DNA of 64,000 nucleotides from Octopus sinensis. Taxonomy: Eukaryota. Under the pieces are notes generated by a model that ran no database searches, had not been told where the DNA came from, and saw only the letters and a program-made list of their open reading frames with translations. Where the stretch lies: positions 372,001 through 436,000 of the forward strand of contig NC_043000.1 of assembly GCF_006345805.1 (NCBI RefSeq). Reading direction: 5' to 3'. The position numbers and the translations under genes are program-made. Below, piece after piece: positions 1,501-55,232 of this stretch (its first letter is position 1; the number at the start of each line of letters is the position of its first letter).

Positions 1501-2061
1501 TCCCTCGCTGATGAACCCTATTACATGATTTTCAAAGATTATTCTACCTATTGCAGTGAATGGAATATTTTTTTTTGTTTTTTATTTTTGTAAATTTTTG
1601 ATAGCCCCCAATCTCTGAATTTCTTTCCGCAAAAGAAATTCTATGTAAATTAAAATGTAATTGAACGTATAACTTATGAAAATGGAATCCATCAAATTTG
1701 AGAGTAGGGATGGTACCCACTTTCCACGAAGATGCGAACAGTAGTAAGAAGTATCACTACATAAAAAAGAAAATACTTAGCATAAAACATCTAAAAAAAA
1801 AAACAAGGTGAATGAAAAAAATTCTAATCAAAAAAACCTAAATGAAAAGAATTAAAATATGAAAACGGTGGTGAAAATTGGCAAATACAATGACTTTATC
1901 ATACTAGGTATGTCTGTGTGAGTATACATGTGTATATATACCCACATTTATGAATATATATACACATATGCGTTTATATAATACAGCTCTATATTTAAGA
2001 GACGAGGAATTATGTACATTATTTACATTTACGGATATTTGTCCTCATCTTGTTTGTTGTT

Positions 2062-2107
2062 AACACAACGTTTCGGCTGATATACCCACCAGCCTTCATC
2101 AGGTGTC
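2062..2107 (-). ncRNA. Minimal type-I hammerhead ribozyme motif (no stem III loop) in a Penelope-like terminal fragment
   Basis: Minus strand reads GACAC-CTGATGA-A-GGCTG-(10 nt)-CAGCC-GAAA-CG-TT-GTGTT: 5-bp stem I, intact core, 5-bp stem II, palindromic AACGTT. Confidence 0.8.
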
Positions 2108-2277
2108 TTTGGGGAAATTTCTTGGATATGCTTTTGTTTTGAAAAATCATTTCTCATCTGAAGATTATGGTCTTTTAAGATGAGGTAATGTCCTCGTTCT
2201 TCTATTAAAAGTTACGTAAGGAACAACTGTAATGCGCTGACAGTTATCCATCGGATGTTATAATTCATTTGATGATG

Positions 2278-2309
<32 letters not shown>

Positions 2310-2319
2310 ATATATAATT

Positions 2320-2730
2320 AATCCCCCAAAACGGAGAAAAACACAAGATAAAACAACAATACGAGAACATGGTACACGCAAAGTATTACTAAGACGCTCA
2401 AGGAAAGAGAGAAACGGTGTTTTACGTTTCAAGCAAAGCTTTTCTTCAGAAACAGGAGACAGAGGTAAGTCGAAAATGAAGACGGAGGAAGATAACCACC
2501 AACAATATGTATAGTTGGTTAAAAAACGGATAAAAAAGACAAGAAAAAAAAACAACAAAACGCGACGACGTCGTACGTGCGAGGGATTAATGAGATGCCC
2601 AGAGAAAGAAAAAAATGGTTCTTTTACGTTTCGAGCATAGCCCACATTCGGAAACAGAAGACAGGAAAGTCCAAAAGAAAAGGAAGAAGGAGGGAAAAAA
2701 TCACCAGCAGTCCACGTCTAGTTACATTTA
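2320..2730 (-). mobile_element. Tandem dimer of ~200-bp hammerhead-bearing element (family P)
   Basis: Two related units 202 bp apart; hammerhead at 2418-2454 is intact (TGTTT-CTGAAGA-A-AAGC-TTT-GCTT-GAAA-CG-TA-AAACA), the one at ~2620-2656 has a decayed core. Confidence 0.75.
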
Positions 2731-3772: not shown

Positions 3773-4173
3773 TATGTATATATATAGGTATACATACATA
3801 TATATAATATGTATATATAATATATATATATAGGTGTACATACATGTATATGTATATATATATGTATCTATGTATGTATATATATATATTATATATACGT
3901 ACCTAAAATAGTGTATACAAATAGATGTACGATTGATACTGCTAGGCATAGAGTTCCAGGTAGTTTATTGTAATACAATTTGTTTGTTCTATGGTTGTTA
4001 AGTAATTTATATGTTGGGTAACCAGGAAATGCAGAGAAAATAAGGATAAACACAAGTTCATATTACAGTTCCTACGTGAGGTTCGCCATGATGGTTGTTT
4101 GGAACTCTGTAAAAGGGGTCCCCATTCTTTTGGATGTGCAGCCTTAACATATAATCAGGGAAACATTTTATTA

Positions 4174-4225
<52 letters not shown>

Positions 4226-4227
<2 letters not shown>

Positions 4228-4620
4228 CGCAGGAGTGGCTGTGTGGTAAGTAGCTTGTTTACCAACCACATGGTTCCGGGTTCAGTCCCACTGCGTGGCA
4301 TCTTGGGCAAGTGTCTTCTACTATAGCCCCGAGCCGACCAATGCCTTGTGAGTGGATTTGGTAGACAGAAACTGAAAGAAGCCTGTCGTATATATGTATA
4401 TATGTATGTATGTGTGTGTGTATGTTTGTGTGTCTGTGTTTGTCCCCCTAGCATTGCTTGACAACCGATGCTGGTGTGTTTACGTCCCCGTCACTTAGCG
4501 GTTCGGCAAAAGAGACTGATAGAATAAGTACTGGGATAAGTCCCGGGATCGATTTGCTCGACTAAAGGCGGTGCTCCAGCATGGCCGCAGTCAAATGACT
4601 GAAACAAGTAAAAAAGAGAG
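4226..4620 (+). mobile_element. SINE family B, full length (tRNA-like head, CORE-like segment, internal TA/TG microsatellite)
   Basis: TGGCTGTGTGG A-box, GGTTCAGTCCC B-box, CTTGGGCAAGTGTCTT CORE-like motif, 3' end GGCCGCAGTCAAATGACTGAAACAAGTAAAA. Confidence 0.9.
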
Positions 4621-4673
4621 TATATGTATATATATAGGTATACATACATATATATATATATGTATATATAGGT

Positions 4674-4716
<43 letters not shown>

Positions 4717-5056
4717 TGTACATACATGTATATGTATATATATATGTATCTATGTATGTATATATATATATATATACGTACCTAAAATAGTGTATACAAA
4801 TAGATGTACGATTGATACTGCTAGGCATAGAGTTCCAGGTAGTTTATTGTAATACAATTTGTTTGTTCTATGGTTGTTAAGTAATTTATATGTTGGGTAA
4901 CCAGGAAATGCAGAGAAAATAAGGATAAACACAAGTTCATATTACAGTTCCTACGTGAGGTTCGCCATGATGGTTGTTTGGAACTCTGTAAAAGGGGTCC
5001 CCATTCTTTTGGATGTGCAGCCTTAACATATAATCAGGGAAACATTTTATTATAAC

Positions 5057-5100
<44 letters not shown>

Positions 5101-5495
5101 GGCGCAGGAGTGGCTGTGTGGTAAGTAGCTTGTTTACCAACCACATGGTTCCGGGTTCAGTCCCACTGCGTGGCATCTTGGGCAAGTGTCTTCTACTATA
5201 GCCCCGAGCCGACCAATGCCTTGTGAGTGGATTTGGTAGACAGAAACTGAAAGAAGCCTGTCGTATATATGTATATATGTATGTATGTGTGTGTGTATGT
5301 TTGTGTGTCTGTGTTTGTCCCCCTAGCATTGCTTGACAACCGATGCTGGTGTGTTTACGTCCCCGTCACTTAGCGGTTCGGCAAAAGAGACTGATAGAAT
5401 AAGTACTGGGATAAGTCCCGGGATCGATTTGCTCGACTAAAGGCGGTGCTCCAGCATGGCCGCAGTCAAATGACTGAAACAAGTAAAAAAGAGAG
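5101..5495 (+). mobile_element. SINE family B, full length (second unit of the duplication)
   Basis: Same sequence as 4226-4620. Confidence 0.9.
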
Positions 5496-5540
5496 TATAT
5501 GTATATATATATGTGTGTGTGCGTGTGTGTAAATAATGTA

Positions 5541-5589
<49 letters not shown>

Positions 5590-5644
5590 AGCAGGACAGT
5601 GGAGACACACAAGGAAGCCGAATGACAACAAACATGGAGGGTCG

Positions 5645-5892
5645 TTATGAAAAGAGATTAAAAAACCCTCTTGAATATTTGCACACAAAATTATATGTAC
5701 TTGACCCAATAATCCCTTCTTAAGTTATATGAACAAGAACAGGAAATTTCACTCTGTATAACTGCAATAAATATACAATGAATCGTTTCTCTCGAAGAGC
5801 TTAGGCTCGAAACATCAAAGACTTTTCCATTCTTCCTGAGCGTCAAACTAATACACCTGCTTGTTATTCCCTCATATATCTTCGTCTTTCAT
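5645..5892 (+). mobile_element. Family P element with variant hammerhead core
   Basis: TTT-CTCTCGA-A-GAGC-TTAG-GCTC-GAAA-CA-TC-AAAG at 5786-5820; colinear with 8316-8620. Confidence 0.7.
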
Positions 5893-6332
5893 TTCATACG
5901 CATGTATGTATGTACGTATGTATGTATGTATGTATGTATGTATGTATGTATGTAGTATGTATGTATGTGTGTATGTATTCTCCGCTTACGAATATATGAT
6001 ACTTATGTCACACATCTGTTACAAACCTCTCTTTCTACATTCCGTTTACCGTATCCACCTAAAAGCAGGCTTTGTATATTTCAGCGCTAAAAGCATTCAT
6101 TTGATAAACGTTCATTTGCATACTCATAACTTTCGAAGGCATTTGGTTTACTTTACAACGGTCTACTAATATGCAAAAAGATACTTGATTATTTTGTTGA
6201 AATCTATGTGAAATTAGCTGATAATGGTCACTTGAACATGTTTGTCGATATTTTCCACAAAAACATAGATTAACTATGGATGTTTTATTCATAGTAAATA
6301 CAAATAATATGCCAATACAGGTAAAGTACATG

Positions 6333-7384: not shown

Positions 7385-7521
7385 AAACTACACTTTTAGC
7401 TTGTTAATTATCGTGTGCGTGTGCATGCATTTGCGTATGTATGTATATATATATATACATACATACATACGGAAATGCATGCACACGCACACGATAATTA
7501 ACAAGCTAAAAAGTGTAGTTT
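7385..7521. repeat. Near-perfect palindrome centred on a (TA)n tract
   Basis: AAACTACACTTTTAGCTTGTTAATTATCGTGTGCGTGTGCATGCATTT pairs with AAATGCATGCACACGCACACGATAATTAACAAGCTAAAAAGTGTAGTTT. Confidence 0.92.
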
Positions 7522-8315: not shown

Positions 8316-8620
8316 TTTATGAAAAGAAAGTTAAAAGCTCTCTTTAATATTTGCACCCAACATTATATGTACTTGACCCAATGACATCAGACCAGTCTCA
8401 TGTACTTTTCAGTAATCCTTTCTCCTTAAGTTACACGAACAAGAACAGGAAATTTCACACTGTATAGCTGTAATAAATATACAATGACTCGTTTCTCTTG
8501 AAGAGCTTAGGCCCGAAACGTCAAAGACTTTTTCATTTATTCGTGAGCGTCAAACTAATACACCTCCTACTTGTTATTCCCTCATATATTTTCGTCTTTT
8601 ATTTTCTGCAAATTAGAACT
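8316..8620 (+). mobile_element. Family P element with variant hammerhead core
   Basis: TTT-CTCTTGA-A-GAGC-TTAG-GCCC-GAAA-CG-TC-AAAG at 8492-8526; ends at a TA tract. Confidence 0.7.
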
Positions 8621-8893: not shown

Positions 8894-9227
8894 TATATAT
8901 ATATATAGTCCAAATTTGCAGAAGACAATTTAGTACATTAACAATTTAATACATTATATCTGAACGGCTCCGATTTCTTGTACTCAGAGTTGCTTTTCCG
9001 ATTATCAGCTGGTAAACTTCATTTGAGTATCCACAGCCTGCAAATTTTTTGAAATATGAAATGAAAATTTTAACGCAGTACCTATTGTTATGTTCTTTTG
9101 TTTACACGTAGGAAAACGGTTACTCAAGCATACGCTTTTGATTTCATTCCTGGTTAACGTGACAATGCCATTATAACTGTCATATACTCGATACAATTGA
9201 AGATATAAAATTATGCTGTAGTTCAAG

Positions 9228-9752
9228 TTCCTGCAAAACCTGGTGGAACAAAATCCCATAATAATTATTGAAGAACTAGCAGAGAATCTTGGATTTGATC
9301 ATTCAACCATTCATCGACACATGCGTGCCATCAGAAAAGTCAGCAAATTGGGTCAATGGGTTCCTCACAAACTTTCCGAGTCTAATGCTTGGCCACATAC
9401 AGTGAGGATGATATACCCAAGGCTGGAGCAGTTTGAATGGGAAACGATGCCTTATCCACCATATTCGCCGGACATTGCTCCATCTGATTATCATTTATTC
9501 CGCAGTCTTCAAAATCATTTATGCGGAAAAAAATATATTAATTCTGTAAAGGAAGTCAGAACAGTACTCGAGGAGTATTTTTCATCATGGACAAGTGAAT
9601 TCTGGAAGAGGAGCCTTGCAATTCTACCAGAGAGATGGGAGAGCATTGTAGAAAATGAAGGAAAGTATATTTCAGAGTAAAAAATAATTTTATCTCAGTT
9701 TTGAAAAGTAAAAGAAGTATAAAAAACCGCATTATTTATGGGCTGACACATT
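9228..9752 (+). pseudogene. Internally deleted mariner (DD34D) transposase relic with probable 3' TIR
   Basis: ORF 9243-9680 has an HTH remnant, WVPHKL and YSPDIAPSDYHLF, but the segment with the first two catalytic Asp is missing; CGCATTATTTATGGG...ACA resembles a mariner TIR. Confidence 0.9.
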
Positions 9753-16100: not shown

Positions 16101-16290
16101 AGTTGGAATTTATAAAAAACAAAAGACGAAGATGGGTGGTAAACAACAAACAGATGTATTAGTTTAACGCTCGGGAAGGTGAGAATTTCTTTTATGTTTT
16201 GAACCTATGCTCTTCAACAGAAAGGAATACAGAAATAAGCAGAGAGAGGAAATAATAAAGGTTTAGTGGTTAGCGATCAATCATGTACAT
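16101..16290 (-). mobile_element. Family P element, decayed hammerhead
   Basis: Minus strand TTT-CTGTTGA-A-GAGC-ATAG-GTTC-AAAA-CA-TA-AAAG; body is the reverse complement of 18207-18422; abuts (TA)n. Confidence 0.7.
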
Positions 16291-16309
16291 GAATACAGGT
16301 AAGTGTATA

Positions 16310-16605: not shown

Positions 16606-17412
16606 ATTTATATATTTTTCATATAATAAATGTGTATGCATAATTGTATGTGTGTGCGTGTGTGCGTGTGTGTGCATGTGTGCGTGCATATGTAACATTT
16701 TTTTATATAACTATTGAAACACTGTGTTCAAAGAGATGATCTATAGCCAAAGGATATGAATATTTTTGAAGCTATATTGAAAAAACCCTCGAAATCGATA
16801 CAGATCGATTAGTTTATTCATTAATATAGTCTTGTAAAGAAGGTGTTTCTCTAAAAATGCCAACACTCAGTTATCATAGTAATGAACAAAAAGATACTTT
16901 ACAGAAAATTCTTTTTAAATAACACTTATTTAATTGGATATTTGTACAGTCCTTGATAAAAGCGGCTTTTTTGTATAAATTTTAATGGCACGTACAAGTT
17001 ACCAGAGACGACCACATAGCTATGTCAAGTGCGGATTAATATCTATTTTACATGTCATAATGACTTCTGGTATTAAACTGCTCGTTAGTTCCTATTACTA
17101 CTATTTCTTTAATATTAAGGAGGTGTGAGATTTACATAGGCTTCCTGCGTCCTTAAACGTCTTAGTATAAAGGCAGGATGTTTAAATGGCAATGGATGAC
17201 TTCCTACACGAAGAAAGGACTTATATACGTTACAACCAGGTTCGTCCACATCGTCAACCTTCCCACGGACAGCGCTTAAAACCATATTTTATTTGCAGAA
17301 TATATTTAACTTTTAGTGAATATTTGTTATCTCTTTCTGTCTGTCTTTCATCTTTGTTTTACTCGGATATATATGTATGAGTATGCTTGAAACGAGGTAG
17401 TGTTACTTAAAA

Positions 17413-18500
17413 CACTGATCAACACATACTTTCTGGCACAAAGTTTATCAGTGGTTTTAGTTTATTTTGGGGTGCTGCATCCAAATCTGACATCAGATTT
17501 TTGAGGTATAAAATCTTATACATTTGCTAGAAAGAGCTATTTAATGCTCATAAGGGAAAAATTAAACATACGTAGATGCAAATTTTAATAGACAATATTT
17601 CTTATTTTAATCTAATAAATCAAAACGCAAAGTTCTGGAAGTAAAGGCACATTTGCATGCAAGAATTAAGCTTCGTTATAACAAAATATGAATAAGTGGT
17701 TATCCATTCTGATCATCTTATTGCAGCAAGAACTTCCCCTTTTTTGACGATCTCTTGTGAACAGCTTCTGGGACATCTTTCATCATCAAGCTCCAGCAGT
17801 AATCTGCCACCATGTTTAAGCCCCATAGGCCTTGGTAGCGTTTTTCCATTACTTTTAACTCTTGATGAATGTGTTCTCCTTGTTCTTCGTTGTCGTCACC
17901 CAAGTTTTCAGGAAATTCACCCAAGTGGCTGTGTAAGCAATGCAATTTAATGCTCATTCTACATTCAAGTACTTGCAGACTCTAGAGCAGCTCCTCCACA
18001 TTATCTTTATAGTTGTTAGCTTTCTTGTTCCCAAGGAAATTCCGCACCACAACAGAGAAGTCATTCCAAGCTCTAACCTCCGCCGCATTCATTGTCGTAA
18101 CAAAATGGGGATCTCTGAGGAGTGTTCTTATTTGAGGTCCATCAAGTATTCCTGCCTTCTTCTCGTTACTGAGACTTGGAAAGGTTGTACATATATATCT
18201 AAAGCATATATATCTAAACATGGAACGCCATGTTGGATCGTTAGCCCCTACACGCAATTTTATTCTCTCCTTGTTTCTTTTCTGTGTATCTTTCTGTCGA
18301 AGAGCGTAGGCTCGAAACGTAAAAGACTTGTTTTATTTCTATTCCTGAGCGCCATACTAATACATTGTTTGTTTGTACTCCACCTGCCTTCGTCTTTTGT
18401 TTATTTTCGTAAACCTTGCCGTTATATCTAAAGCAGTCTCCACTGTGATCAAGAGTTTTGATGAATTACTTCATCACACCAAGTTTCAACACAGGTTGTG
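17413..18500 (-). pseudogene. Chapaev3-like (CMC superfamily) transposase relic, C-terminal half with one terminus
   Basis: Motifs LKLGVMK*FIKTLD, GILDGPQIR, NFLGNKKA, MSIKLHCLHSHLGEFPENLG, EEQGE..HQ, MEKRYQG, ADYCWSL; terminus begins CACTGATCAAC. Family name from recalled motifs. Confidence 0.75.
18207..18422 (+). mobile_element. Family P element, 216 bp, with 13-bp TSD and hammerhead variant
   Basis: TSD TATATCTAAAGCA at 18194-18206 and 18423-18435; removing it restores the transposase frame (DCFRY-ICTTFP); TCTTT-CTGTCGA-A-GAGC-GTAG-GCTC-GAAA-CG-TA-AAAGA at 18289-18326. Confidence 0.88.
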
Positions 18501-19154
18501 CAAACGTTGTGGATTGTGTGCATACATGTACATAAACATACATTTATATATGTATGATGCAAAGTTCGTTAGCTGGGAGCATTTATCACGACTAAGCTTA
18601 AAATGTTGCTGCAGATCCTCACCTTTTGTTTATTCGTGTTTATTCGTCTGTTTTGATCGCAGATCTCAGTGATGACTGCTCCCTTTTTCGTGTTGAGTCT
18701 GGGCTGCACACACGCACGTGCGCTCACACACACACCCATACACACACACACATACCACACACACACGCACACATCGCGTGCGCGCTCACATGAACACATA
18801 GTCACGCATAAAAATTTACATTTGTCTCTAAATCAAAGTTCGGTTATGTTTAATGCGAATGCAAACAGTCGGTTGTCGCTTTAGTAAAGAAACTTAACGC
18901 CGAAAAGATGTTTACTGAAGCCGGTAGTGATGAGTGTCTCAGGTCAGAGGGCATCTGATGCGATGGAGACTGAGCGCGGAGATGGAGATGATAAAAGATG
19001 CAGTTAGGGTGTAGAGAAACGTTAGAGAACTTAGGCGGTGAGTGTCAGAAGTATAGACAGAAAAGATATGAAGAGAATGCTGAAACAAAGAATAGTGCTG
19101 CATTCGTACATACATACATACATACATACACATACAAAAACACACATTCCTATG

Positions 19155-20226: not shown

Positions 20227-20849
20227 TATACACACACACACACACACACACACACTTATTTATGTAAAGGCTTATTATATATTTCGCAGCGTACGTGCAT
20301 AATAACTTCTTTATTTTATCATTTCAAAACCCCGCACGATGTCTTTAAACTATTTTCTTTCCTTCGATTCCTGCTCTCCCTCTCTCTCTCGGTCACTGTC
20401 CCCTCTCTCTCTTACCCCCTTCTCTCTCTTATCCTCTTGCAAACTTGCTGCCTCGTTCCCATCGGCCGCTTGTTCAACATGTCTTATCACCGAAAAGGTA
20501 CTTATTTTTCCACGCTGTTGATATTGTTTTTGTGTCTCTCTGTTTGTCTCAAAGCCGTAGGGCGCCTGTGTCATCAATGTTTTTAACCGTTACTGTCCCC
20601 AAAAAAGATTTTTCGTTTCATGTTCGTCTCTGTTGCGTTGCATTCTTTCCTTCTGGGGCTGGCCGATTCAGAGCGGATCTCAGAATTAAACATCCGAAAT
20701 CTGCGATGAGGGATCAGTTTCTGACTGAAAAACGAAGGCTTTGAATGACCCGTCTGTCTCTTACGTTCGTCCCTTCGTGTATTTCACATTATTTATATAT
20801 GTAAAGGTTTATAGTATTATTATTATAATATATATATATATATATATAG

Positions 20850-21050
20850 TGAATCCAAACAAGGAAGAACAAACAAGAAAAAATAATAACGCAAGGACGT
20901 GGTACAAGTACTGTATTATCAGACGTTCAGGAAAGGAAGGAAAGAGGATTTAACGTTTCGAGCGAAGCACTTCGTCAGAAATAGAGAAAGTCCAAAGGAT
21001 GGGAAAATGGAGGAAGAAAATAGCTAACGATACACACGCGGTTACATTTT
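20850..21050 (-). mobile_element. Family P element with canonical hammerhead core
   Basis: 20982-20948 minus strand ATTT-CTGACGA-A-GTGC-TTC-GCTC-GAAA-CG-TT-AAAT; body resembles 2320-2730; abuts (TA)n. Confidence 0.8.
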
Positions 21051-21954: not shown

Positions 21955-22353
21955 CTAGCAGTATCGCCCGGCGTTGCTCGGGTTTGTAAGGGAAATAATT
22001 ATATAACCATTTTTAGAGAGTTACTTCCCTTATATAATAGCAAAATATGCATTAAAAATGGGAAAAAATTATGGTAAATTTTTTTAAAATCGTAGACTCA
22101 TCATAGACATTTTTAGAGAGTTACTTCCCTTATATTATAGCGAAAAAAATGCATTAAAATGGAAAAAAATTATGGTAAATTATTTTTAAAATCGTAGACT
22201 CATCGTAGACGCGCGCTAATACCCAGAAGGGCTCGATATGAATCACGACTATAAGATACCCGCTTTTGGTTAAACTGCACCGCAAAATGTGGGAGTAGTT
22301 AGGAATCTAAATCGTAGGAGACAGACACACAACTTCACTTTTATATATAAAGA
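21955..22353 (-). mobile_element. Non-autonomous Helitron
   Basis: Minus strand A|TCTTTATATATAAAAG...CCCGAGCAACGCCGGG hairpin...CTAG|T, no TSD; internal ~100-bp tandem repeat at 22008-22209. Confidence 0.9.
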
Positions 22354-23860: not shown

Positions 23861-25495
23861 CAGTAGTTTTATTTTTATAGCGTGCTTTCACTTCACTACC
23901 GAGCGCAGCTCTGTGTGCCTTGGGTATGTGCTGTGATTTGTTGTGATGCTCTGATGGTTATTGTATGGAAAATGTTCTGCGTAGGATGTGTGCAGTGCCT
24001 AGTAGTGCAATTTTCTGTATGTTATATGTGTTTGTAAGTCCTGGTGTTTTTGTTATGTATTTGTCTGAATATTTTTTATATGCCTAATGCACCTACTATG
24101 ATAGGAATTGTTTCTGTTTTCAGATTCCACATTCTAGTTACCTCTATTTCCAGGTCTTTGTATTTTGAGAGTTCTCTATTTCTTTTAGAGACACGTTGTC
24201 ATCAGCCGGTATTGATACTCAATTAGAAAGCATTTTTTTTCTTCATGGTCTCTGACAACTATATCTGGTCTGTTGGCCTTAATTTCTCTATCTGTGTGTA
24301 TCGGCATATCCCAAGCATGGTTGCTTTCTCGTTTTCTGTGACCTTTTCTGGTGTGTGCCTATACCATCTTTTTTCTGTTGTTATTCCATAATGTTGGCAT
24401 AGCTTCCAATGTATGTAGGTTCCAACTCTGTCATGTCTGTGAATAATTCCTTCTTAGCCAGGACTGGGCAGCTAGAGATAATATGATTTATTGTTTCTTG
24501 TCCATCTCCACATATTCTGCAGTTACTTGTAATATTTCTTTTCATTACATGTTTTTGGTAATTTCTGGTGGGGATGCTTTGGTCTTGTGCTGCAATTAAA
24601 AATCCCTCTATTTCTGCTTTGAGTCCTGAGCTTCTCAACCATTGTTGGGATTTTTCTTTGTCTATTTCTTTTTGCGTTTAGTTTAGTCCAGTATTTACCA
24701 TGAAGGGGCTTTTCTTGCCATCGTTTTATCATGGTTCGTTGCTGTTCTATTTTTAGTTTGGATTTCATTTGTTTTATAGCTTTTGTTGTTTCTTCATTTT
24801 CTTCTTCTTCTTCATGTTTATTAGGTGGTATGATTTCTTGTTTGTATTTGTCAGCTTCCTTAAATACTGAGAACAGTGTTTTTGTTTTGCTCGTGTTTTC
24901 CGCTATCTGGATCAGTTTTCCTTCCTTCTGAAGTAGATATTTTTTCAGTCCTATGGTGGTTATTTTTATAGTAGTTTTCCAGCTGTATAGGCCTCTACCA
25001 CCTTCTATACGTTGTATATATAGTCTTTCTATATCAGATTTTGGGTGATGCATCCTAGATCCTGTCATTATTTTTCTTGTTTTCCTATCTATTTTTGTCA
25101 GTTCATTTCGTGTCCAGTTAAGGATATTGTAGCTGTAACTTATAACTGGGACAGCTAAAGTGTTGATACCTATTATCTTGTTTTTAGCATTGAGCTCTGT
25201 GTTTAGTATTGATCTAACTCGTCTATAATATTCTTTTTTTATTTTCTCTTTCATTTGTGTGTGCTGTGTCTTATCTAGTTCATGGATTCCTAAGTATTTG
25301 TAAGTTTGGCTTTGGTCTAATTCTTTTATTTCATTGGTTTTATCTAGTGTGATGTTGTTACTCTTAACTAGTTTTCCTCTTTTCATGGTTACTTTGGCGC
25401 ATTTTTCTAATCCAAATTTCATATCTATTTCTTTGGTAAATCCATGAACTGTCTTTAATAGTGTTTCCAGCTGTTTGTCATTTGCAGCGTATAGT
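23861..25495 (-). mobile_element. 5'-truncated R4/Dong-type (RLE) LINE: RT end, CCHC finger, endonuclease, 3' UTR
   Basis: MKFGLEKC, YKYLGI, GGRGL, IAAQDQ, CRICGDGQETINHIISSC, NRPDIVV, IALLGTAHILRRT*; several frameshifts; (TAA)n at both ends. Confidence 0.92.
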
Positions 25496-25496
25496 A

Positions 25497-25528
<32 letters not shown>

Positions 25529-25557
25529 TATTATTATTATTATTATTATTATTATGA

Positions 25558-28144: not shown

Positions 28145-29005
28145 ACTTTTTCTTGGTACATACAGTCTGTCTGTACCACTATTTGGGTGGAGTATCCCAT
28201 ATCTAGTCAGAAACACCCTTGTCTTTCTGTCTAAGATTTTTAGTTCGTCTACTGTTCATGTGATTACCCCTGCACCATATCTAAGGATTGAAACCGCTCA
28301 GGTGTTGATAACTTCAATCTTATTCCGTCCGTTTAATTTTGACTTAAGGATCAGTCTCAGTTGCGCAAGTAATCCACCTTAAATTTTTTTGTCATTTCTT
28401 TCTCCATCAATTTATCCATTTCCAATATCCCCAAGTACATCTCTTCTATCTGCTTCATAACCTCCCCCGACGGTATCGCTAGCCCATTCATACATTTGAT
28501 TTTGCCTCTCTTTCAGACTAACACACCACACTTTTTCAGTCCGAACTCCATTCTGAAATCAATACTGAAAGTATTCACCGTATGAACGTGGGAGCTGACT
28601 TGGGATTCAGCTTTACCATAAAGTTTGAGGTCATCCATGAATAACAAGTGGTTGACATTATGGGGGCGGCTTTTGAATACACACCCAGCCTTTGCTTTCT
28701 TCGGGATCAGTCTTAGTGGTGTCATGCAGAGTACAAGGATCAGTGGAGACATGCAGTCCCCTTGGAAGATGCCTATCTTGATTTCTATTGTCCCTAAACT
28801 TCTTCCATATGCTGTCATTTCCGTCTTCCACTTCGCCATACTTTTTCCAACAATCGTTCATCCTTCTTTGCAATACCAAATATGTTCATACATTCCATAA
28901 TCCAAGAATGTGGGATCATATTGTGAGCCTTGCGATAATCGATCCTTGTTATGGCTAAGTTAGTTTTCCTCCTCTTGCAATCTCTAAGTACAGTTTTGTC
29001 TACTG
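28145..29005 (-). mobile_element. Reverse-transcriptase fragment of a second R4/Dong-type LINE
   Basis: IDYRKAHNMIPHSWI, GIFQGDCMSPL, NHLLFMDDLKLYG, EFGLKKC, YLGILE, SKLNGRNKI. Confidence 0.9.
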
Positions 29006-41584: not shown

Positions 41585-41837
41585 TAGTCGTTGTCCTCCG
41601 CTATAAGGATGTGTATTTATCGCAATACATAACTGTTCGACTGATGTTCTATATACAATTATTATTGCTTTGGCTCTTATTTTCTTTCAGGTTTCTTGAG
41701 CTTCTTGCAAATCACTTTCAGCAAAAGAAATATTTCCGATATAAGTACCAGTAACTTATTCCTACAGTTCATATGCGTGTCTACGCATGTATGTATATAG
41801 ACACATATAAATAACTATATCATGTAAAAAATGTTTT

Positions 41838-42022
41838 TAAAAAATATGAAGATGGTGTAAAAAAAAGGGAACAAACAAACAGTGTGTATTAGGTTGACAC
41901 TAAGGAAAATTGCAAGACGTATTTAACATTTCGAGCCTATGCTCTTCAGCGGAAAGGATAGATGGGGAGAAATAAAGAGAAAAAGAACAAGTGTGTCTCA
42001 ATTAGTCGGCCATCGCATGCTG
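41838..42022 (-). mobile_element. Family P element, decayed hammerhead
   Basis: Minus strand TTT-CCGCTGA-A-GAGC-ATAG-GCTC-GAAA-TG-TT-AAAT at ~41921-41957. Confidence 0.65.
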
Positions 42023-42468
42023 AAAACCTTAGAGTCTTCTTGTTTTCCTGGGCGTGGACCTATTACACCGTGTTTGTTTGTTTGTTGTTTTTTTTTCACA
42101 TTTTCTTTTTCTTTTTTTTTTTTGTACCACATTTAATATATGCTCCGTGGTCACTCCGGTTTCATACTGCCTCACTGAACTTTCAGTGAAAACCTATTTT
42201 GAATATTTTACTAAGTTTTGAAGTGTTGACATTAAGAGTTCTTTCTATATTATTTTTCCCTTTAGGTATAATTAGTTTAAATTTATATTTCTTTCTTTCT
42301 CTGAATCCCCAGACTTCTATACGACCAGCTAATTACTTGGGACGGCAGTAACCTCACAAATAATATATTACCACTGAACTCTACTGAGTTTCTCACTAGA
42401 ACTCTTTCTAGACTATTACTGTTATTCTCCTTGAATTACCCCCTTCATGGATCTTACTGTACACTGTT

Positions 42469-43308: not shown

Positions 43309-43725
43309 TATTTCTTTACTACCCACAAGGTGCTAAGTACAGAGGGAACAGATAAGGACAGACACACGGATTAAGTCGATTACATCGACCCCAGTTCGTC
43401 ACTGGTACTTAATTTATCGACCTCGAAAGAATGAAAGGCAAAGTCGACCTCGGCGGAATTTGAACTCAGAACGTAACGACAGACGAAATACCTGTTTCTT
43501 TACTACCCACAAGGGGCTAAACATAGAGGAGACAAACAAGGACAGACAAACGGATTAAGTCGATTACATCGACCCCAGTGCGTAACTGGTACTTAATTTA
43601 TCGACCGCGAAAGGAAGAAAGGCAAAGTCGACCTCGGCGGAATTTGAACTCAGAACGTAACGGCAGACGAAATACGGCTAGGCATTTCGCCCGGCGTGCT
43701 AACGTTTCTCCCAGCTCGCCGCCTT
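43309..43725 (-). mobile_element. SINE family A dimer with 17-bp TSD
   Basis: One head plus two B-box/core/tail units; TSD TTCTACC(T/G)GAACCTGTA at 43290-43306 and 43727-43743. Confidence 0.9.
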
Positions 43726-45274: not shown

Positions 45275-45826
45275 AGGCGGAGGGTTGGCAGAAACGTTAG
45301 CACGCCGGGCGAAATGCCGCTACGTTCTGAGTTCAAATTCCGCCGAGGTCCACTTTGCCTTTCATCCTTTCGGGGTCGATAAATTAAGTACCAGTTACGC
45401 ACTGGGGTCGATGTAATCGACTTAATCCGTTTGTCTGACCTTGTTTGTCCCCTCTATGTTTAGCCCCTTGTGGGTAATAAAGAAATAGGTATTTCATCTG
45501 CCTGTACGTTCTGAGTTCAAATTCCGCCGAGGTCGACTTTGCCTTTCATCCTTTCGGGGTCGATAAATTAAGTACCAGTTACGCACTGGGGTCGATGGAA
45601 TCGACTTAATACGTTTGTCTGTCCTTGTTTGTCCCCTCTATGTTTAGCCCCTTGTGGGTAGTAAAGAAATAGGTATTTCATCCGCCCTTACGTTCTGTGT
45701 TCAAATTCGACCTTATCTTTCATCCTTTCGGGGTCTATAAAATAGGTACCGGTTGAATACTGGGGTCAATGTTAATGACGTGTCCCCTCTCCTAAATTTT
45801 CAGGTCTTAGGTCTATAATAGAAAGG
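45275..45826 (+). mobile_element. SINE family A trimer
   Basis: Head, then units joined at AAAGAAATAGGTATTTC (~45480 and ~45663, period ~183 bp); last unit has a different tail. Confidence 0.9.
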
Positions 45827-54516: not shown

Positions 54517-55096
54517 TATTTAATTTCTCTCACTTTAAGCTCTCGTATAAACTATGCTAGGTTGTTGGGCGCTTACTTCTCAATATTTAACACACCTTAT
54601 ATAACATACATCCTATAATAAATATAGTTATGTATCCTACACTGTGAAGCAAACGTCATGTAAAAAAACGTTATCTAACTGCCATTTGCTCAAACTTCTA
54701 AAGCGTTGACTAATAAAGGCATTAAATTTTCAAATTTTTTTTTTTTTTTTCACATTTTCGAGTAAGTTTGTGTTTGGCAAGTAACCTGATATCGGATTAT
54801 CATGTGCTGAAGTCGAAAGAATTGCAGCATAGTAGGGCTGGTTCAACAAACTCATGGCTGTGTGGTTAAGAAATGCAATTCGAAACTACGTTGCTACGAG
54901 TTCAGACTCACTGCTCTACACCTTGTTGAGCAAGTGTTTTCAACAGGCCGATTGAATTTGGAAGACAGAAACTGCGTGGAAGTTCATAGTATGATATATA
55001 TATATATAAATGGTAATACAATAAAAGAATGAAAGATACCATGATATTATGTAAATAGAGGAATTTATCTTTAAATGACAATTATTCAGGTGCCAT

Positions 55097-55157
55097 GATA
55101 AAACTCCGAGTTTCGGATGTCGGGGTGGAAATCCACGCTGCCATCTCTTCAGTTATC
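55097..55157 (-). ncRNA. Type-I hammerhead motif with short stem III
   Basis: Minus strand GATAA-CTGAAGA-GATG...GTGGA-TT-TCCAC...CATC-C-GAAA-CTC-G-GAG-TT-TTATC: 5-bp stem I, intact core, GUU triplet. Confidence 0.72.
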
Positions 55158-55232
55158 CGGCCATCGGAAAAATGCTATGAAAAATCTTTATATATATATA
55201 TATATATATATATACGTGTGTCTGTCTGTGTG

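What the first reader, a model, noticed from the sequence alone, without database searches (positions are those of the whole stretch)
18194..18435. A ~200-bp mobile non-coding element carrying a minimal hammerhead ribozyme (retrozyme-like family P)
Seen: a 216-bp insert with a perfect 13-bp TSD splits a transposase frame, so it moved as a unit. It has no ORF and centres on stem I-CUGnnGA-A-GAGC-loop-GCUC-GAAA-CG-UH-stem I. Seven related motifs occur at 2418, 2620, 5786, 8492, 16190, 20948 and 41921, mostly next to (TA)n. Known: Penelope-like elements carry type-I hammerheads lacking stem III that cleave as dimers, and metazoan non-LTR retrozymes are short hammerhead repeats that make circular RNAs. 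Inference: this is a high-copy, non-autonomous, ribozyme-processed retroelement without a tRNA head, probably mobilised by a Penelope-like RT. I cannot tell whether it has been described for this genome.
Basis: partly seen in the sequence, partly recalled or inferred. Interest (0 to 1): 0.85.

Follow-up and report, generated by a model that had tools for sequence, protein, structure and literature searches.

The report
Penelope-type hammerhead mini-retroelement, altered core
A 216-base non-coding insert with a duplicated target site jumped into an old transposon gene; it belongs to a very abundant animal repeat that carries a Penelope-type minimal hammerhead ribozyme motif with an altered, likely weakened core, and it was likely copied by a Penelope-like retrotransposon's enzymes, a known kind of element.

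Summary
The insert 18207-18422 has a 13-bp TSD, and removing it restores the transposase frame. Contigs of three DNA runs (one unlabelled) show the exact empty site (229 bp skipped, 13 ambiguous). Family copies end about 100 nt after the motif, mostly in (TA)n; one has an inverted 5' partner, a Penelope hallmark. Contig depth and window density suggest roughly 10^5 copies. So it is likely a short Penelope-derived 3'-end element copied by target-primed reverse transcription. 'Retrozyme' and 'ribozyme-processed' are not supported: copies are dispersed monomers, the RNA is not self-paired (z +0.8), covariation does not beat shuffles, and 5 of 8 copies share a non-A base at position 6 (two also G5C). 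Stand-alone element versus 5'-truncated Penelope ends is unresolved; no autonomous partner was found. Host probably an octopus (recalled, unconfirmed). The scan noted similar Penelope hammerhead end-pieces in other genomes. Known kind; the high-copy non-canonical core is the mildly new part.

The parts
18194..18206 (+). left target-site duplication, 13 bp
   Evidence: empty-site joint with 13 ambiguous letters in three runs
18207..18218 (+). 12 nt identical to the target at 18192-18203; likely templated from the target during 5' joining (inferred)
   Evidence: sequence
18219..18288 (+). non-coding 5' part: short head plus pyrimidine tract, homologous to the 5' parts of copies at 16200, 20959 and 2632
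   Evidence: 0 of 200 shuffles reach the score for each of these three; 5 of 200 for 41932; not significant for 2430, 5809, 8515
18289..18326 (+). minimal type I hammerhead motif: stem I 18289-93/18322-26, core CUGUCGA 18294-300 (A6U), extra A, stem II 18302-13, GAAA 18314-17, palindromic CG, UH = UA, predicted cut after 18321
   Evidence: published min-HHR consensus
18327..18422 (+). conserved non-coding 3' part, about 100 nt, with near-invariant TAATAC; fixed family 3' end followed by (TA)n in other copies
   Evidence: contig depth collapses in bin 18411-18439 and loose ends behind 18427 are (AT)n in all four runs
18423..18435 (+). right target-site duplication, 13 bp
17724..18206 (-). host DNA-transposon transposase, C-terminal piece, decayed (Chapaev-type label recalled, not from a call)
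   Evidence: 69-72% identity to unnamed ~565-aa proteins
18436..18519 (-). host transposase, piece upstream of the insertion
16102..16300 (-). relative, subfamily A (CUGUUGA), G12A and decayed CG, ends in long (TA)n
41823..42015 (-). relative, subfamily A (CCGCUGA)
42017..42120 (+). inverted, 5'-truncated copy joined head-to-head to the 41932 copy
   Evidence: nhmmer E 5e-4, best control hit E 6.4; BLAST 74% over 73 nt
20849..21050 (-). relative, subfamily B (canonical CUGACGA, stem II mismatch), ends in (TA)n
2514..2729 (-). relative, subfamily B, decayed core; first unit of a head-to-tail pair
2317..2504 (-). relative, subfamily B (canonical CUGAAGA); second unit of the pair, 72% identical to the first
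5645..5897 (+). relative, subfamily C (CUCUCGA: G5C and A6U) with a different, longer AT-rich 5' region
8317..8619 (+). relative, subfamily C (CUCUUGA), same 5' region as the 5809 copy, ends in (TA)n

Best explanation
The 216-bp insert is a target-site-duplicated copy of a short non-coding repeat with a Penelope-type minimal hammerhead motif (A6U core) about 100 nt from a fixed 3' end, and it was likely copied as a non-autonomous passenger by a Penelope-like element's reverse transcriptase/endonuclease, probably without needing ribozyme cleavage. Shown: insertion geometry, empty site, motif, fixed 3' end, (TA)n association, inverted 5' partner in one copy, very high abundance. Inferred steps: (1) copies are transcribed, probably by read-through, since no tRNA-type promoter is seen; (2) a PLE protein binds the 3' module and nicks TA-rich DNA, here the TATATAT stretch of an old transposase gene; (3) reverse transcription starts at a set site about 100 nt past the hammerhead, primed where the target TATAT matches the element's TA tail; (4) a staggered second nick 13 bp away gives the TSD, and 12 nt of target were copied during 5' joining; (5) the hammerhead could form only as an RNA dimer through ACGU, and with A6U (G5C plus A6U in a sister subfamily) it is predicted to cleave poorly or not at all, so it persists as part of the inherited recognition module.
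For: Empty-site joints and TSD. The motif fits the metazoan PLE min-HHR consensus in every feature but A6. Sharp 3' end followed by (AT)n in contigs of four runs and in 5 of 7 window relatives. In the anole Poseidon element, RT starts 85-92 nt past the hammerhead cut site, the endonuclease prefers AT-rich DNA, and catalytic hammerhead mutants still insert in vitro (PMC11167929). Inverted 5'-truncated partners and (TA)n preference are described PLE traits (PMC8557442) and are seen at 42017. Six of 8 copies are linked by homologous non-coding 5' parts. Readable 5' junctions cluster at about -98, -97, -85 and -74 from GAAA. None of 10 pairs among five copies shares sequence between -200 and -100 beyond TA/CA runs. 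Position 6 is U in 4 and C in 1 of the five A/C-type copies, and G5C is shared by two independent insertions.
Against: No autonomous PLE sharing this 3' end was found, so the partner is inferred. The published Octopus Hydra-1 hammerhead is a different one with a full stem III (by eye). Contig depth falls about 200-1300-fold from the core to the first 30 nt, as 5' truncation would give, though 5' parts of window copies are only 48-63% identical to the focal one and would fail the 80% filter. Copies 5809 and 8515 join the same 3' module to a different, longer 5' region. Only 1 of 8 copies has a readable TSD. Stem pairs hold in 85% of cells, but covariation does not exceed shuffles (79 of 500 reach it). 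Three subfamily B copies descend from a canonical core (two still have CUGANGA). Whether U6 is the genome-wide majority is not shown: one search printed 40 of 478 variant rows, none at 18297.
Confidence: 0.55

Rival explanations
1. The copies are simply the 5'-truncated 3' ends of autonomous Penelope-like elements with a long non-coding terminal repeat, not a stand-alone family.
For: Steep 5' loss of contig depth. High 5' truncation and inverted partners are typical of PLEs. Cervera 2014 read most single min-HHRs as probably truncated PLEs. The Octopus Hydra-1 consensus has about 200 non-coding nt after its apparent stop (counted by eye), so 204 nt could fit in such a region. Copies 5809 and 8515 extend about 165-200 nt upstream.
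Against: No copy reaches recognisable coding sequence; the one frame tested gave only 3 repeat-protein hits that are spurious. The focal copy and the 2632 copy, both with readable junctions, start within a few nt of each other at a similar AA(C)ATG(G/T)AAC. Roughly 160-400 copy-equivalents cover even the first 30 nt (rough).
Confidence: 0.3
2. It is a monomer of a classical non-LTR retrozyme: tandem transcripts self-cleave as dimers, circularise and are reverse-transcribed from circles.
For: Size (204-216 nt), low GC (41%), TSD longer than 4 bp and type I hammerhead fit the description (PMC7229834). Monomers are common in some retrozyme families (Li 2026). One head-to-tail pair exists at 2317-2729. 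Cofolding two cores pairs ACGU with ACGU between strands.
Against: The pair is 72% identical, like independent old copies. No head-to-tail joint is among the 15 of 36 joints shown, and loose ends at the 3' end are (AT)n. The RNA folds no better than shuffles (z +0.82), is 50% paired as a circle, and stem I has about 0 probability in the whole element. The core is non-canonical.
Confidence: 0.1
3. It is a SINE-like passenger of an ordinary LINE (RTE-type fragments are in the window), and the hammerhead is an inherited relic.
For: A 13-bp TSD is ordinary for LINE-type TPRT. RT-LINE fragments occur at about 24400-25500 and 28500-28860.
Against: No tRNA head. Hammerhead about 100 nt from the 3' end, (TA)n targeting and a head-to-head inverted copy are the PLE pattern. 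No BLAST match between any copy and the LINE fragments of the window.
Confidence: 0.05

Closest known systems
Minimal hammerheads (min-HHR) of metazoan Penelope-like elements (Cervera and De la Pena 2014, PMC4209133)
   Same: Type I, no helix III, palindromic 15.2-16.2 (C-G), extra base after A9, G10.1-C11.1, U-rich upstream, 4-5-bp helix I, mostly dispersed single motifs, high sequence heterogeneity.
   Different: A6 is U (all rows of their alignment that I saw have A6, which their descriptor required); helix II is only 4 bp; no cephalopod is among the rows seen; abundance about 10^5 against thousands.
Poseidon element PAc of Anolis (Frangieh 2024, PMC11167929)
   Same: 3' end of insertions about 90-100 nt past the hammerhead cut; AT-rich target.
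   Different: There the ORF starts in stem II; here no frame starts in or after the motif, and the protein partner is unknown.
Metazoan non-LTR retrozymes (Cervera and de la Pena 2020, PMC7229834; Li, Clavereau and Pollet 2026 preprint)
   Same: Short, non-coding, low GC, type I hammerhead, long TSD, PLE-related.
   Different: Dispersed monomers ending in (TA)n rather than homogeneous tandem arrays; not highly self-paired; minimal, non-canonical core; circular RNA not shown.
Hydra-1_Obim and Naiad_Obim/Ovul, published Octopus PLEs (Craig 2021, PMC8557442 supplement)
   Same: (TA)n insertion preference; a hammerhead near a fixed 3' end in Hydra-1_Obim.
   Different: Different hammerhead sequence with a full stem III; Naiads lack a canonical hammerhead; neither looks like the parent (compared by eye only).

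Membership tests
PLE minimal hammerhead (min-HHR) | Type I topology: helix I, helix II, GAAA, palindromic N-N, UH, no helix III | tested here: met
   (centroid fold is the hammerhead)
PLE minimal hammerhead (min-HHR) | Core CUGANGA | tested here: not met
   Focal copy CUGUCGA (A6U); met in relatives 2430 and 20959
PLE minimal hammerhead (min-HHR) | Covariation in helices I and II | tested here: inconclusive
   85% of cells paired, 2 of 9 pairs with double changes, better than all slid controls, but 79 of 500 shuffles reach the score; only 8 sequences
PLE minimal hammerhead (min-HHR) | Self-cleavage as a dimer | not testable with these tools
   Cofold allows inter-strand ACGU pairing; no activity data
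Penelope-like element insertion | Fixed 3' end shortly after the hammerhead, with (TA)n/AT-rich target preference | tested here: met
Penelope-like element insertion | Inverted 5'-truncated partners or partial tandems | tested here: met
   Inverted copy at 42017-42120; head-to-tail pair at 2317-2729; 1 case of each among 8 copies
Penelope-like element insertion | 3' end shared with an RT plus GIY-YIG encoding element | tested here: inconclusive
   No genome held; one upstream frame searched without a real hit; a six-frame Pfam scan of the window was not completed
Non-LTR retrozyme | Tandem arrays with a complete hammerhead in consecutive units | tested here: not met
   6 of 8 window copies are single; the one pair is 72% identical and one core is decayed; no head-to-tail joint among 15 of 36 joints shown, though (TA)n spacers could break contigs
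Non-LTR retrozyme | Highly self-paired monomer RNA | tested here: not met
   z +0.82, 156 of 200 shuffles fold as well; 50% paired as a circle
Non-LTR retrozyme | 150-450 bp, GC under 50%, non-coding, TSD longer than 4 bp | tested here: met
   204-216 bp, GC 41%, 13-bp TSD
Non-LTR retrozyme | Abundant circular monomer RNA | not testable with these tools
   Only assembled contigs were available
tRNA-derived SINE | tRNA-like head with A and B boxes | tested here: not met
   (recalled box patterns)
Rfam hammerhead families | Score at or above gathering threshold | tested here: not met
   0 hits in the window; none among the 150 of 176 weak hits listed for 1-22000

The most novel reading that the evidence does not exclude
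A stand-alone, SINE-like Penelope passenger with about 10^5 copies spread through a cephalopod genome while carrying a hammerhead whose core drifted from CUGANGA to CUGUYGA and CUCUYGA. It would be invisible to standard hammerhead descriptors, and would be a natural demonstration either that the hammerhead fold serves Penelope RT as a recognition signal rather than a catalyst, or that a protein-assisted A6U core is active.
Probability: 0.3. Interest if true: 0.6.

Novelty: new member of a known kind. Interest (0 to 1): 0.36.

Why it matters
What hammerheads do in Penelope-like elements is open: they are conserved, yet cleavage was dispensable in the one in vitro system. A very abundant family with canonical (B), A6U (A) and G5C/A6U (C) subfamilies side by side gives a ready natural series for testing whether catalysis or only the fold is selected. 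The clean insertion outside a microsatellite also shows a 13-bp TSD and a templated 5' junction, which (TA)n targets normally hide. For repeat annotation, it flags a large class that CUGANGA descriptors and Rfam miss. The kind of element itself is already described.

Tried and rejected
No whole genome is held, so copy number, end distributions and the autonomous partner could not be read from an assembly. Rfam: no hit at gathering level; weak hits were microsatellite hairpins. Run search: no RNA holder listed. Run X15, whose RNA label is a guess, has contigs over the element and almost none over the flanks; contigs give no strand, ends or level, so I draw nothing on expression or circles. Contig depth is not a copy number; the 10^5 figure is a rough ratio, consistent with 8 copies in 64 kb. 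Pattern scans: 0 loci with the long pattern in metagenomes; with the 20-nt pattern 5 metagenome, 1 genome and 0 viral loci, all 6 chance matches of 20-23 nt in unrelated sequence. The upstream frame of copy 8515 against 1.84 billion proteins gave 3 hits, all repetitive proteins, rejected; the other two frames were translated but not searched. A six-frame Pfam scan for PLE remnants did not run, so PLE coding fragments in the window are not excluded; 7 selected ORFs showed none. A LINE protein search did not name the host taxon. TSDs for the other 7 copies: none readable. Lunse 2017 is not held, so I cannot say whether an A6U variant is among its hammerhead variants. Supplements of Cervera 2020 (too large), Cervera 2014 file 1 and Li 2026 (closed) were not seen; Repbase and Dfam cannot be searched here. 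Rejected: chance motif; tRNA SINE; MITE (no terminal inverted repeat seen by eye, long TSD); hammerhead on the opposite strand (none found).

Full report
Setting. The window is AT-rich, microsatellite-dense animal DNA. I take it for an octopus from the look of its SINE-like repeats; this is recalled and no call confirmed it (one search named no close taxon). Runs under four organism labels hold at least half of the sampled words of the locus. No assembly is held.

The insertion is real. A 13-bp direct repeat brackets 216 bp. Removing the insert and one repeat restores the frame of a decayed transposase, whose ~565-aa homologues align on both sides in register. Contigs from runs X1, X8 and X7 show the empty site exactly: 229 bases skipped, 13 letters fitting either side, in 5, 3 and 3 contigs. 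The first 12 nt of the insert repeat the target from two bases further left, so the element proper starts at about 18216-18219. I infer these 12 nt were templated during 5' joining.

The motif. 18289-18326 reads stem I (5 bp), CUGUCGA, an extra A, stem II (4 bp, 4-nt loop), GAAA, CG, UA, stem I. The centroid fold of the 49-mer is this shape. It matches the consensus of metazoan PLE minimal hammerheads (PMC4209133 supplement) in all features except A6, which is U. A relaxed descriptor finds 3 motifs against 0.03 by chance. Rfam misses it. A natural A6C hammerhead had k_obs under 0.1 per min, in line with older mutagenesis at that position (PMC3088659 passages). One search for A6U found no paper on it, but Lunse 2017 is not held. 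Within the whole element stem I has about 0 and stem II about 0.23 pairing probability, and the element folds no better than shuffles. Two cores can pair through ACGU, the dimer route proposed for such motifs.

The family. They fall into subfamily A (18314, 16200, 41932; 4-nt loop, position 6 U, U, C), B (20959, 2632, 2430; 3-nt loop, A6) and C (5809, 8515; G5C and A6U, with a different 5' region). Stem pairs hold in 85% of cells, with double changes at two pairs, but 79 of 500 shuffles reach the covariation score, so covariation is not shown. The 3' end is fixed: 5 of 7 relatives reach TATA(T/C)A 99-119 nt after GAAA (p = 0.0008), contig depth collapses there, and loose ends are (AT)n in all four runs. 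Summed contig depth at the core is 2,000-5,000 times the flank; divided by per-contig depth it suggests 85,000-205,000 core and 30,000-70,000 3'-part copy-equivalents. The tool warns that depth is no copy number, but 8 copies in 64 kb point the same way. Copy 41932 is joined head-to-head to an inverted truncated copy, and 2632/2430 form a 72%-identical head-to-tail pair.

Mechanism. Fixed 3' end about 100 nt past the hammerhead, TA targeting and inverted partners are the PLE pattern (PMC8557442 section 6 and supplement). In the anole element PAc, RT starts 111-118 nt into the ORF and the hammerhead cuts at 26, the endonuclease prefers AT-rich DNA, catalytic mutants still insert, and cleavage needs the protein (PMC11167929). 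I therefore infer target-primed reverse transcription by a PLE protein, with cleavage probably dispensable. The shared non-canonical cores of subfamilies A and C fit this, since they must have been present in source elements that kept making copies. The protein-assisted cleavage seen for PAc leaves open that A6U is active in vivo.

Stand-alone or truncated? For stand-alone: six copies are linked by homologous non-coding 5' parts, readable starts cluster at -74 to -98, and no pair shares sequence beyond -100. For truncated: depth drops about 200-1300-fold toward the 5' end (divergence could explain part), subfamily C carries a longer, different 5' region, and an autonomous Octopus PLE has a non-coding 3' region of about 200 nt (by eye). 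No partner ORF was found. I put 0.55 on stand-alone and 0.3 on truncated ends.

Retrozyme? Size, GC and TSD fit (PMC7229834), but tandem organisation and strong self-pairing were tested and not met, and circular RNA could not be tested. It works like a PLE 3' module and should not be filed as a retrozyme (0.1).

Prior art. Dispersed min-HHRs, probably from truncated PLEs, in thousands per genome: Cervera 2014 (text parts 1-2 of 4 and supplement file 2 part 2). Retrozymes: Cervera 2020 (parts 2-3 of 6; supplement unreadable). Retrozymes as non-autonomous PLE derivatives, with monomers, and 8 of 9 tested dimers not cleaving: Li 2026 preprint (parts 1-3 of 5; supplements closed). Frangieh 2024 (parts 1-2 of 4). 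Craig 2021 (passages, section 6, supplement searches and parts 2, 52, 53). Bonar 2026 gives Penelope-like elements as 6.83% of O. vulgaris in 190 families, with no mention of ribozymes (part 1 of 3, passages, supplement search). Passages only: PMC6765202, PMC3088659, PMC8967140, PMC5786205, PMC4758252. Searches showed no paper describing this family, but Repbase, Dfam and the curated octopus library were out of reach, and the repeat is probably catalogued there. The scan's notes hold no look-alike of this sequence but list similar hammerhead-tipped Penelope end-pieces in other genomes; I did not check them.

Verdict. Observation confirmed; interpretation partly supported. A new, very abundant member of a known kind, with a non-canonical core and an unusually clean insertion site as the points of interest. 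Interest 0.36.

Noticed in passing
window 1985-2270 (-), motif at 2065-2107: A separate minimal hammerhead family with canonical CUGAUGA and an 8-bp stem II (fold z -2.97), between TA-rich flanks; no similarity to the focal family. It looks the most intact hammerhead of the window.
   Followed up: partly
window ~55010-55190 (-), motif at ~55100-55155: A ~180-bp piece between two (TA)n runs with CUGAAGA-G...GAAA-CUC-G-GAG-U-U and a GAUAA/UUAUC stem I, like the Hydra-clade hammerheads tabulated by Craig 2021. Stem II is imperfect and the descriptor did not call it.
   Followed up: partly
window 5585-5650 (-) and 8895-8930 (-): Possible short inverted 3'-end pieces beside the subfamily C copies; the 8895 piece matches the 3' end of the 8515 copy (93% over 29 nt, partly TA), the 5585 piece is weak.
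   Followed up: partly
window 18385-18414: One contig of run X1 goes back from 18414 to 18385, a 30-nt duplication at the 3' end, the size of the 30-40-nt PLE 'tail' (table 5c).
   Followed up: no
window ~17400-18560: Decayed DNA transposon of a ~565-aa transposase family widespread in animals (Chapaev-type, recalled); about 40-50 copy-equivalents by contig depth.
   Followed up: partly
window 18350-18410 and 16265-16280: A near-invariant (C)TAATAC followed by a pyrimidine tract lies downstream of the motif, and GCTAAC plus a pyrimidine tract lies upstream in the 16200 copy. Both resemble intron branch points (recalled consensus); PLE terminal repeats are known to overlap introns.
   Followed up: no
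window 4155-4850 and 5030-5640: Local duplication of about 0.9 kb containing SINE-like repeats (identical ORF translations).
   Followed up: no
window 7395-7510: Near-perfect 116-nt palindrome made of microsatellite arms; source of the spurious Rfam miRNA hits.
   Followed up: no
window 9222-9680 (+), 24380-25530 (-), 28510-28860 (-): Mariner-like transposase remnant (label recalled) and RT-LINE remnants.
   Followed up: partly
window 22008-22210, 43311-43675, 45321-45708: Two-copy tandem repeats of 102 and 184 bp units.
   Followed up: no
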